Shown here: in pieces, positions 29,306 through 32,074 of the stretch
How positions within the stretch are numbered: the first letter of the stretch is position 1
Layout of the letters: each line of letters starts with the position of its first letter
NCBI RefSeq assembly: GCF_009914755.1
Contig: NC_060932.1
DNA: 64,000 bases
Direction: 5' to 3' (one strand)
Origin: the human T2T-CHM13v2.0 reference genome, Homo sapiens
Program-made: the position numbers and the translations under genes
The notes under the pieces: generated by a model
Seen by the model: only the letters and a program-made list of their open reading frames with translations
What the model was told of the DNA's origin: nothing
Databases searched by the model: none

Positions 29306-30364
29306 TCAGTGACAGCACAAGCATTAGTATCCAGTATCCAACCATCTGAAAAAAATTGGAGGATTTTAGCTTGTCTTCGCTAAAATAGTTTGGGGAATAA
29401 TAGAGTCACAAATTAGAACTAGTAAGAATCCATTCCTTCAGTCTTGCTAGTTGAAGTAAATCCCTTATTTGTGGACATGAGATTTACTTTAGGTTGTATT
29501 TGGCAAGTGTGGGAGTACAGGGTGTGGAATTTATTCAGCTACAAAAGTCCCTTAAAATTCCCCGCAATTTCATAAACCCTTAAGAGTTCAGACATGCAAG
29601 AATGTTTGTGAAATCTTTGGAAGATGACAACCTAGGCTACTCTCTCTGCTGAAAATGACTAAGTTGGATTTTCTGCTTCATTCCTAAGGAGGAAACTTGA
29701 CGGCTGAAAGTGAAAAGTGATGGCAATAAACCAGGGAGCGTGAAATAGAAGGTGGGTGAAAATTTTACTCAACTGGGAAAAAGATGCTAATTCAACCCCG
29801 GGCAGCAAGAGAAAATGCAAATGAAGATGAAGTCAAAAGAGCTTAACCTGTTTCAAATATTTCATTTCTAAAAATTCGATTCTATTTTCTCTTGTCTCAT
29901 AGTCTGTCTTAAGAGACTCATACTAAATCCGTGGGCATCCTATTCTTTCCTCATCTAAACACATTTTTAAAGGTGAGAAATAACCAAAGTTATGAGGCAG
30001 GATTCAGGGTTAATCAATAATTTCAAACACGAAATGGAATATGTTAAGTCAAGAACTAGTGTGTAAAGATATTCAGCAATCTTGTTAGAAAGTTGTTTGA
30101 AAGAATTTGCTCTTTTTTTGCTTAGAGATGAAGTTGTTGTTCTTATTCACACACATGAACACAGCACGTTCTTGCTTCAGGAAGTGCGCCGGCGGGCAGA
30201 TTGGATAAATTCAAAGATCGGTATTCTGACAAAATTGGCAGTTTCCAAATTCCAGATAAATTTGTTTATCCCAAATCATTGTGTTGTAACTTAATCACAA
30301 ATTAAACAGATTTAAACACAGAGCCTTTAAGTAAAAATATGTGGGGAAATAATTGCTTAAGTTT

Positions 30365-30493
30365 AAAAATAGGAATCTCTATTTTTTTATTTTTTCTTTC
30401 TTTATTTTAATCAATGTTGACCAGGTTGGCCTCGAACGTGTAGCCTCGCCTCCTCGAGTGCCAGGGCAACCGCCCTGAGCCACCGCGACTCCC
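30365..30493 (-). ncRNA. snaR-related (ASR/CAS-like) retroposed short Pol III element
   Basis: Minus strand reads GGGAGTCGCGGTGGCTCAGGGCGGTTGCCCTGGCACTCGAGGAGGCGAGGCTACACGTTCGAGGCCAACCTGGTCAACATTG plus an A-rich tail. It has an A box, B box GTTCGAGGC, 18-bp TSD aggaatctctattttttt (30371-30388 / 30494-30511), and a T5 run right after the TSD. Expression is unknown. Confidence 0.65.
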
Positions 30494-30786
30494 AGGAATC
30501 TCTATTTTTTTTAAACCAGGTGAAAAATGTTAGACCAGATTACTCACCCTTAAAAATTAGACAAAGTATCTGAGTCATCGCTCCCTTGAACAACGCCTCC
30601 TAGCCGTGGGATTGAGGAGGAATCTGGTGTTAAAAGTCCACACGCATCATTTCCCTTAATGTTATTAATGATAATTTGCATAAGGAATCTTTTTTTGACT
30701 GTAAAAATAAGTTTACTTTGACAGTCTCTATTACTTAAGACATTTGGTCTATCAGATAATATCTTCGTAATCATAGTGCTGTTTAA

Positions 30787-31152
<366 letters not shown>

Positions 31153-31399: not shown

Positions 31400-31622
31400 G
31401 GCCGGGCATGGTGGCTCAAGCCTGTAATTCTCAGCCTGGTGGCTCAAGCCTGTAATTGTCAGCACTTTGGGAGGCTGAGGCGGGAGGATAGCTTGAGCCC
31501 AGGAGGTCGAGGCTGCAGTGAGCCACGATTGTGTCACTGCCCTCCAGCCTGGGCGACAGAGTGAGACCCTGTCTCTAAAGACAAACCACACACACATATA
31601 CACACACACACTGACACACACT
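31400..31622 (+). mobile_element. Monomeric Alu (FRAM/FAM-like) with duplicated 28-bp 5' segment and (CA)n tail
   Basis: tggtggctcaagcctgtaatt(c/g)tcagc occurs at 31409 and 31437, then right-arm-type sequence. Confidence 0.8.
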
Positions 31623-32074
31623 TATTGTTCAATTCAGTGCGTGTTTTGCTTCGTTTTGGATGAAAATTAACAGGCTTTCACATTGTGACTTAATCTTATC
31701 AGAGACTCCTAAAGTAAACAATAGCGCAGTAGGAGAAACCCTGATTGTGTAACTTCTGCTCTTGCTCCCCTGGAAATAATGTCATTTCCTATAAACCCAC
31801 CCCCAAACAATCGTGACTACGTATTCATACTACTGGAGTCTTCCAAAATAGCAACTGCACATTATTTATCAACGTTTAGTTTGCATTTGACAAAGCACAT
31901 CCACCTGGGCTTCCATTTATCATTGCTATTATTATATTTTATTATTATTTTCTTATTTCCAAAATCTTTCTAGAATGGAAAGTAAACGGGGGGACCAAAA
32001 CCCCACTTAGAACTCTGCTTAGAAGATTCGGAAATGCCCTTGAGGTTTGGTCCTCCCAGGAGAGCACGAAGTTT

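What the first reader, a model, noticed from the sequence alone, without database searches (positions are those of the whole stretch)
30365..30511. Complete snaR-like mini Pol III unit ~1.9 kb upstream of, and divergent from, the first exon
Seen: an ~84-nt body plus A-rich tail on the minus strand, bracketed by an 18-bp TSD, which marks L1-mediated retroposition. It keeps an A box (TGGCTCAGGGCGG), a B box (GTTCGAGGC) and 7 CpGs, and the flank supplies a T5 terminator (30365-30369) just after the TSD. A ~129-nt transcript is therefore possible. It is too short and divergent for FLAM/Alu. Its blocks GTGGCTCAGG.CGGTTGC, GGAGGCG and GTTCGAGGCCA.CCTGGTC.ACAT match my recollection of snaR (small NF90-associated RNA) and its FLAM-derived precursors ASR/CAS. 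Inference: a possibly active, unannotated small-RNA gene or TFIIIC site next to the promoter.
Basis: partly seen in the sequence, partly recalled or inferred. Interest (0 to 1): 0.7.

Follow-up and report, generated by a model that had tools for sequence, protein, structure and literature searches.

The report
Catalogued snaR-ancestor retrocopy that spawned another
This is an already catalogued copy of CAS, a small primate jumping element ancestral to the snaR RNAs; a second copy on chromosome 10 carries this copy's own flanking DNA up to its stop signal, so this one was likely once transcribed and re-copied, but no function is shown.

Summary
It is an 85-nt body (30493-30409, minus strand), a 20-nt A-rich tail, a perfect 18-bp TSD, A and B boxes, 7 CpGs and a flank T5. 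It is a CAS element (catarrhine ancestor of snaR), not snaR, ASR or a truncated Alu. It is not new: Parrott et al. 2011 (Suppl. Fig. S4 legend) name Hs17397126Ch8 as the only CAS locus with EST evidence of Pol III transcription, and an hg18-to-T2T anchor puts that coordinate within about 0.7 kb of this element. Added here: a chr10 copy shares its T6+G10 variants, carries its 3' TSD and four terminator T's, and is fused to a full-length AluY-like element inside one 17-bp TSD. It is most likely a fossil cDNA of this locus's Pol III transcript, making this locus a secondary CAS source. Against special function: CpG retention is regional (the neighbouring Alu is also CpG-rich), and published H1/ADS/iPSC Pol III peak lists and the H1 TFIIIC top-500 list have no peak here. 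Present-day activity rests on ESTs alone.

The parts
30409..30493 (-). CAS body, 85 nt; +1 G at 30493
   Evidence: 4 differences from the majority of 21 CAS-type copies (T6, G10, G21, A40)
30472..30483 (-). Putative Pol III A box (+11..+22)
   Evidence: sequence; position as published for CAS; matches 10 of 12 letters of the tRNA A-box consensus printed in Suppl. Fig. S4
30429..30437 (-). Pol III B box (+57..+65), full match to GWTCRANNC
30389..30408 (-). A-rich tail, 20 nt, interrupted
30494..30511 (-). 5' copy of the 18-bp target-site duplication, at a TTT/AAAA L1 endonuclease-type site
30371..30388 (-). 3' copy of the TSD; would be transcribed; found again with one mismatch behind the tail of the chr10 copy L002
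30365..30369 (-). Flank-derived T5 Pol III terminator; the chr10 copy ends with four T's here and joins an AluY-like 5' end
30818..31093 (-). Neighbouring older Alu in the same orientation with 19 CpGs kept (context: regional CpG retention); a T5 lies between it and the CAS

Best explanation
This is a full-length retroposed CAS copy with intact A and B boxes and a flank T5, and it likely acted as a Pol III gene and secondary source element, because a chr10 copy preserves its TSD and terminator. Shown: TSD, endonuclease-type site and A tail; family membership; both boxes; the chr10 structure (CAS + this locus's TSD + T4 + AluY-like element, one 17-bp TSD around the whole). Inferred: L1 machinery inserted a CAS RNA here, probably from the chr19 parent locus as Parrott et al. 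propose. The site happened to supply a terminator 19 nt past the tail and likely lies in a poorly methylated zone near the SLC7A2 CpG island. TFIIIC/TFIIIB could then load Pol III, giving an RNA of about 129 nt ending in U4-5. In a germ cell, L1 reverse transcriptase copying an AluY RNA likely jumped from the Alu 5' end to the 3' U-tail of this RNA and inserted the fusion on chr10, roughly 10-30 Myr ago (rates recalled). Today it is probably a low-level, context-dependent Pol III locus without a selected function.
For: 40 genome matches, best other copy 93%. Against genomic snaR genes it lacks 16 nt (epsilon1+epsilon2); against Alu left arms it lacks 17-19 nt (delta1); it lacks the extra 3' segment of ASR-like copies L028/L066/L070 (definitions). 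Published ESTs with minimal flank for Hs17397126Ch8. Coordinate anchor: an hg18 5S fragment at chr8:13,437,908 is found at T2T 13,802,512-618, offset about 364.6 kb against 365.3 kb needed. Daughter: only 2 exact hits genome-wide for CAS 3' end + TSD + T-run, on chr8 and chr10; 15 of 16 letters match after the A run, chance about 8e-5 over 39 copies; the best of 1,560 cross-pairs; T6+G10 shared by these two only among 40; sisters in the tree at 90/77, not significant by itself; one perfect 17-bp TSD round CAS+Alu and no repeat of the pre-Alu letters after the Alu. Of 10 copies (of 40) with both boxes, this is the only one with T5 or longer directly behind the tail.
Against: No chr8 entry beginning 1739 in the hg18 Pol III lists (H1, ADS, ADS-iPSC) or the H1 TFIIIC top-500 list of PMC3896398. 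No chr8 hit in the text-held supplements of an expressed-Alu screen, one file not searched; that screen may not cover CAS. ESTs were not seen directly and could come from oligo-dT priming on Pol II upstream-antisense RNA. The template jump is inferred; RNA ligation or another route cannot be excluded. Other primates could not be examined.
Confidence: 0.85

Rival explanations
1. The locus has been exapted as a functional small-RNA gene, an independent BC200/snaR-like RNA, or as a TFIIIC element that shapes the SLC7A2 promoter.
For: The only CAS with ESTs as of 2011. All 7 CpGs kept, tied top with 2 other copies of 40. The 129-nt RNA folds with z = -2.43 and a 6-7-bp stem between its 5' end and TSD-derived letters, which needs the derived U6.
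Against: The neighbouring older Alu keeps 19 CpGs against a median of 8 for 88 Alus examined, so retention is regional. 4 differences from the family majority, more than L003, L005 and L006. Body plus tail folds only at z = -1.52. No peak in the H1/ADS/iPSC lists. No functional paper found in 10 searches.
Confidence: 0.1
2. It is a dead CAS pseudogene that was never transcribed by Pol III; the ESTs are Pol II read-through from the SLC7A2 promoter and the chr10 likeness comes from chance or DNA-level conversion.
For: No Pol III peak in the lists checked. An A-rich tail can prime oligo-dT, and a CpG-island promoter lies 1.8 kb away.
Against: The chr10 copy starts at +1 and ends in the terminator T-run, the two ends of the predicted Pol III RNA. 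Homology stops on both sides at those points, so it is not a segmental duplication. Chance match about 8e-5.
Confidence: 0.04
3. It is an ordinary truncated Alu/FLAM monomer.
For: Derived from the Alu left monomer; shares the B-box region.
Against: An internal 17-19 nt deletion and many substitutions are shared with about 40 dispersed copies. The only Rfam match at 30300-30600 is snaR-A, none to SRP.
Confidence: 0.01

Closest known systems
CAS (catarrhine ancestor of snaR), Parrott et al. 2011, PMC3045588; locus Hs17397126Ch8
   Same: About 85 nt, A box +11-22, B box +57-65, oligo-A/T tail, TSD, dispersed copies; by coordinate anchor the very locus reported with six ESTs.
   Different: The paper treats the chr19 parent locus as the source of CAS copies; its main text has no 'chimer', 'transduc' or 'template switch'. 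Here a retroposed copy appears to be a second source. The Supplementary Dataset (.doc) listing flanks could not be read and may note this.
snaR-A/B/C (Rfam RF02556)
   Same: Same lineage and promoter layout; 35.8 bits to the model.
   Different: Lacks the two 8-nt expansions, scores far below the 98-bit cut-off, is TSD-flanked and has no chr19 duplicon flanks; NF90 binding untested.
ASR (Alu/snaR-related)
   Same: Shares the delta1 deletion.
   Different: Lacks the ~13-nt 3' segment that ASR keeps.
Chimeric retrogenes U6/L1 and U6/Alu (PMC4476161, PMC6789731), Alu/L1 (PMC11838501)
   Same: A Pol III RNA ending in about 4 T's joined 5' of a retroelement within one TSD.
   Different: The 5' partner is a CAS RNA from a single identifiable locus and the 3' partner a full-length AluY-like element. 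RtcB ligation needs a 5'-OH partner, which a full-length Alu RNA would not be expected to have (inference).
BC200 (recalled; compared in PMC3045588)
   Same: Alu-monomer-derived Pol III unit with an A-rich middle and a unique 3' end taken from the insertion site.
   Different: BC200 is abundant and conserved; nothing of the kind is shown here.

Membership tests
CAS | About 85-nt body before an oligo-A/T tract | tested here: met
   85 nt, 30493-30409
CAS | delta1: 17-19 nt missing relative to the Alu left monomer | tested here: met
   19 and 17 nt gaps against two genomic Alu left arms
CAS | delta2: ~13-nt 3' segment of ASR missing | tested here: met
   segment present in L028, L066, L070, L022, L075, L080 and absent here; the ASR label for those copies is inferred from the published description
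CAS | B box at +57-65 and putative A box at +11-22 | tested here: met
CAS | TSD-flanked dispersed copy | tested here: met
   18-bp perfect TSD; 40 matches genome-wide
CAS | Restricted to catarrhines | not testable with these tools
   no other primate genomes are held
snaR | epsilon1 and epsilon2 8-nt internal expansions | tested here: not met
   16-nt gap against four genomic snaR genes L081-L084
snaR | Rfam RF02556 gathering score 98 bits | tested here: not met
   35.8 bits; not among the 54 scored genome matches
snaR | NF90/ILF3 association | not testable with these tools
   needs RIP/eCLIP
ASR | Keeps the ~13-nt 3' segment | tested here: not met
Active Pol III type 2 gene | Pol III/TFIIIC occupancy and a discrete transcript today | tested here: inconclusive
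   ESTs reported; no peak in H1/ADS/iPSC lists; four 2010 ChIP-seq papers plus Barski 2010 not held
Chimeric retrogene (chr10 copy L002) | Two RNA copies directly fused, same orientation, one TSD, one 3' A tail | tested here: met
   17-bp perfect TSD round CAS+T4+AluY-like; no separate Alu TSD

The most novel reading that the evidence does not exclude
This retrocopy is a living, independently arisen snaR/BC200-like gene: the insertion site gave it a terminator and a 3' strand that pairs with its 5' end, it is transcribed by Pol III in germ cells, it has seeded at least one new insertion, and its RNA or its TFIIIC binding has been kept for a role at the SLC7A2 promoter.
Probability: 0.1. Interest if true: 0.7.

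Novelty: already known. Interest (0 to 1): 0.38.

Why it matters
The addition is a natural record of a transcript: the chr10 insertion preserves both ends of the predicted Pol III RNA of one specific locus. That shows that a retroposed CAS copy, not only the chr19 parent, could be expressed in the germ line and re-copied. Several other CAS/ASR copies are also fused 5' of an Alu or L1 (see Noticed in passing), whereas snRNA/Alu chimeras are described as very rare (PMC4476161, passages). If confirmed with primate empty sites, this small family is a handy test set for how L1 reverse transcriptase jumps between RNAs.

Tried and rejected
snaR membership, ASR membership and a plain truncated Alu were rejected. 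CpG retention as a sign of selection was rejected as uninformative because it is regional. A two-step origin of the chr10 unit (Alu inserted into a CAS tail) was rejected because the letters before the Alu are not repeated after it. A segmental duplication was rejected because the flanks differ. Read-through from the upstream Alu is unlikely: a T5 lies about 30 nt upstream of +1. A search for other secondary sources among the 40 copies gave one more, weak cross-pair (L026 to L003, 5 non-A letters), not accepted. L011 shares T6 but not G10 and shows no flank, so it is not assigned as a daughter. The tree of 85 columns resolves little (2 of 35 branches well supported; L023 and L071 left out as 5'-truncated). 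The first TSD-after-Alu script mis-set the Alu end for L015, L024 and L030 and was redone. The chr19 parent locus (snaR-F) was not found among the 40 scored matches, so its 3' end was not compared. The piR-36011 lead concerns snaR-A, not this locus. Paper searches for SLC7A2 with Pol III terms or coordinates found nothing on this locus. An A-box/B-box background scan did not run.

Full report
Observation. On the minus strand the element starts at 30493, runs 85 nt to 30409, has a 20-nt interrupted A tail, then the 3' copy of an 18-bp TSD (30388-30371), one A and T5 (30369-30365). The two TSD copies are identical, and the upstream one begins at a TTT/AAAA site. The A box, B box and 7 CpGs are as described. 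There is no T4 before the T5, so the unit could give a 129-nt RNA.

Family. Rfam gives one match over 30300-30600, snaR-A at 35.8 bits (E 1.8e-6; cut-off 98), with gaps at two internal places. A search of the own genome returned 40 matches from 55 candidates and a core pattern 43. Together these are 51 distinct places by my count, of which 40 were fetched and examined. I take contig numbers as chromosome numbers. Aligned with four genomic snaR genes, two Alu left arms and the paralogues, the element lacks 16 nt relative to snaR, lacks 17-19 nt relative to Alu, and lacks the extra 3' segment of six ASR-like copies. These are the published definitions of CAS (PMC3045588: parts 2-6 of 8 of the text and the supplementary figure PDF read; PMC3337139: parts 1-2 of 3 read).

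Already in print. The legend of Suppl. Fig. [quoted passage not shown] To test whether this is our locus I took an hg18 landmark, a plus-strand 5S fragment at chr8:13,437,908-988 from another paper's table, and fetched 10 kb around the T2T position predicted by assuming identity. A plus-strand 5S fragment lay at 13,802,512-618 (29.7 bits, E 0.007, below the family cut-off). The offset is about 364.6 kb against 365.3 kb needed, 0.7 kb apart over 4 Mb. The only other chr8 match is at 28.0 Mb. So this is that locus. The paper's Supplementary Dataset (.doc; Data S3/S4, with flanks and TSDs) could not be read and may bear on the novelty of what follows.

A daughter on chr10. The best paralogue, L002 (C10:64,135,424, minus; 93%), reads: CAS from +1, A8-T-A7, then 15 of 16 letters matching the rest of the chr8 TSD and the first four terminator T's, then the first base of a full-length Alu. 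A perfect 17-bp TSD surrounds CAS+Alu, and the letters before the Alu do not recur after it, so it is one insertion. At chr8 those letters lie on both sides of the element and so belong to the chr8 target site; the direction is chr8 to chr10. Controls: the pattern of CAS 3' end + TSD + T-run has 2 exact hits genome-wide, these two loci; its 24 two-mismatch hits compare with 15 for the reversed control, and the 18 that were fetched did not align to the body. The 16-mer occurs once (the other chr8 copy) in 362 kb of background, with an expectation of about 8e-5 over 39 copies. It is the top pair of 1,560 in an all-against-all test, with one weaker pair not accepted. L001 and L002 alone share T6+G10; L011 and the truncated L071 also have T at position 6. 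They are sisters in a tree at 90/77, which is not significant alone. chr10 has the family state at 21 and 40, so chr8 gained G21 and A40 later. The Alu is Y-like by recalled diagnostics, with 4 non-CpG differences in 232 sites and 14 of 25 CpGs kept, roughly 10-30 Myr by recalled rates.

Mechanism. Shown: structure and relationships. Inferred: Pol III transcription from +1 to the T-run in a germ cell, and joining to an AluY RNA or cDNA during L1-mediated insertion. U6/L1 chimeras likewise have about 4-8 T's at the junction (PMC6789731, passages). RtcB ligation there needs a 2',3'-cyclic phosphate and a 5'-OH; a junction at the first base of an Alu fits a template jump better (PMC4476161, passages), but this is inference. 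Ordinary daughters would prime in the A tail and lose the flank (established Alu behaviour, from my knowledge), so more may be hidden.

Why this copy. Ten of 40 copies keep both boxes by my motifs. This is the only one of them with T5 or longer directly behind the tail (+125); one has T5 inside the body and the rest have a first T4 or longer at +144 to +421. It keeps 7 CpGs, as do L003 and L006. The older Alu 325 bp away keeps 19 CpGs against a median of 8 among 88 Alus, and CpG o/e is 0.77-0.82 over 30001-31000, about 1 kb from the CpG island that starts near 32000. So low germ-line methylation of the region likely explains both CpG retention and permissive transcription, without selection on the RNA.

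Against present activity or function. The hg18 peak lists for Pol III in H1 (332 rows), ADS (229) and ADS-iPSC (316), the 61-row novel list and the H1 TFIIIC top 500 have no chr8 coordinate beginning 1739 (PMC3896398, passages and supplement searched). An expressed-Alu screen has no chr8 hit in 6 searched files, one further file not searched (PMC4333407). Passage searches of PMC12424700, PMC9151912, PMC9148063, PMC2094060 and PMC11838501 found nothing on this locus. Five 2010 Pol III ChIP-seq papers and the 2009 snaR review are not held. The 129-nt RNA folds mildly better than shuffles (z -2.43, 2 of 200) through a short stem between the 5' end and TSD letters that uses the derived U6; body plus tail alone gives z -1.52. 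This is a weak hint only.

Not in print, as far as searched. Ten full-text searches found only the two Parrott papers discussing CAS, and the 2011 main text has no 'chimer', 'transduc' or 'template switch'. Subscription papers and the .doc dataset were not covered.

Verdict. A known CAS locus, already flagged as the transcribed one; novelty 'already known'. The chr10 fossil transcript makes past germ-line Pol III transcription and secondary-source activity likely (0.85). A selected function is not supported (0.1). Interest 0.38.

Noticed in passing
L002 (G000:C10:64,134,992-64,135,441, minus): CAS + chr8 TSD + T4 + full-length AluY-like element within one 17-bp TSD; central to this report.
   Followed up: yes
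L018, L024, L030, L070 (T-ended junctions); L015, L026, L029, L072 (A-ended junctions): Eight more of the 40 copies have an Alu joined in the same orientation right after the tail, with the CAS/ASR TSD found after the Alu's tail: perfect in L015 (8 nt), L024 (11), L029 (10), L072 (9); imperfect in L026, L070; degenerate in L018, L030. T-ended ones look like chimeras; A-ended ones could be later Alu insertions into the tail.
   Followed up: partly
L012 (G000:C1:102,474,213, minus): CAS + A tail + short T-run joined to what I recognise from memory as a 5'-truncated L1 3' end, with a 10-nt upstream word repeated after the L1 tail: a likely CAS/L1 chimera like U6/L1.
   Followed up: partly
window 30362-30388 with 30494-30514: The pre-insertion site is an imperfect palindrome, so the transcript's TSD and U tail can also form a 3' hairpin; this hairpin is the predicted fold in the chr10 version.
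   Followed up: partly
window 30818-31093: Older Alu with 19 CpGs, the highest among non-Y-like Alus in the window; suggests a poorly methylated zone upstream of the SLC7A2 CpG island.
   Followed up: partly
window 31401-31577: Alu right-arm-like monomer with an internal tandem duplication near its 5' end (about 31408-31459).
   Followed up: no
window 30571-30577 and 30179-30199: An AP-1-like heptamer about 80 bp upstream of +1, and a small CpG-rich patch with an ETS-like word about 170 bp past the terminator (motif names recalled).
   Followed up: no
G000:C19 50.74-50.95 Mb and 53.09-53.23 Mb: This assembly has 52 snaR matches over the Rfam cut-off among 54 scored, well above the 21 A/B/C genes listed from hg18 in PMC3045588.
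   Followed up: no
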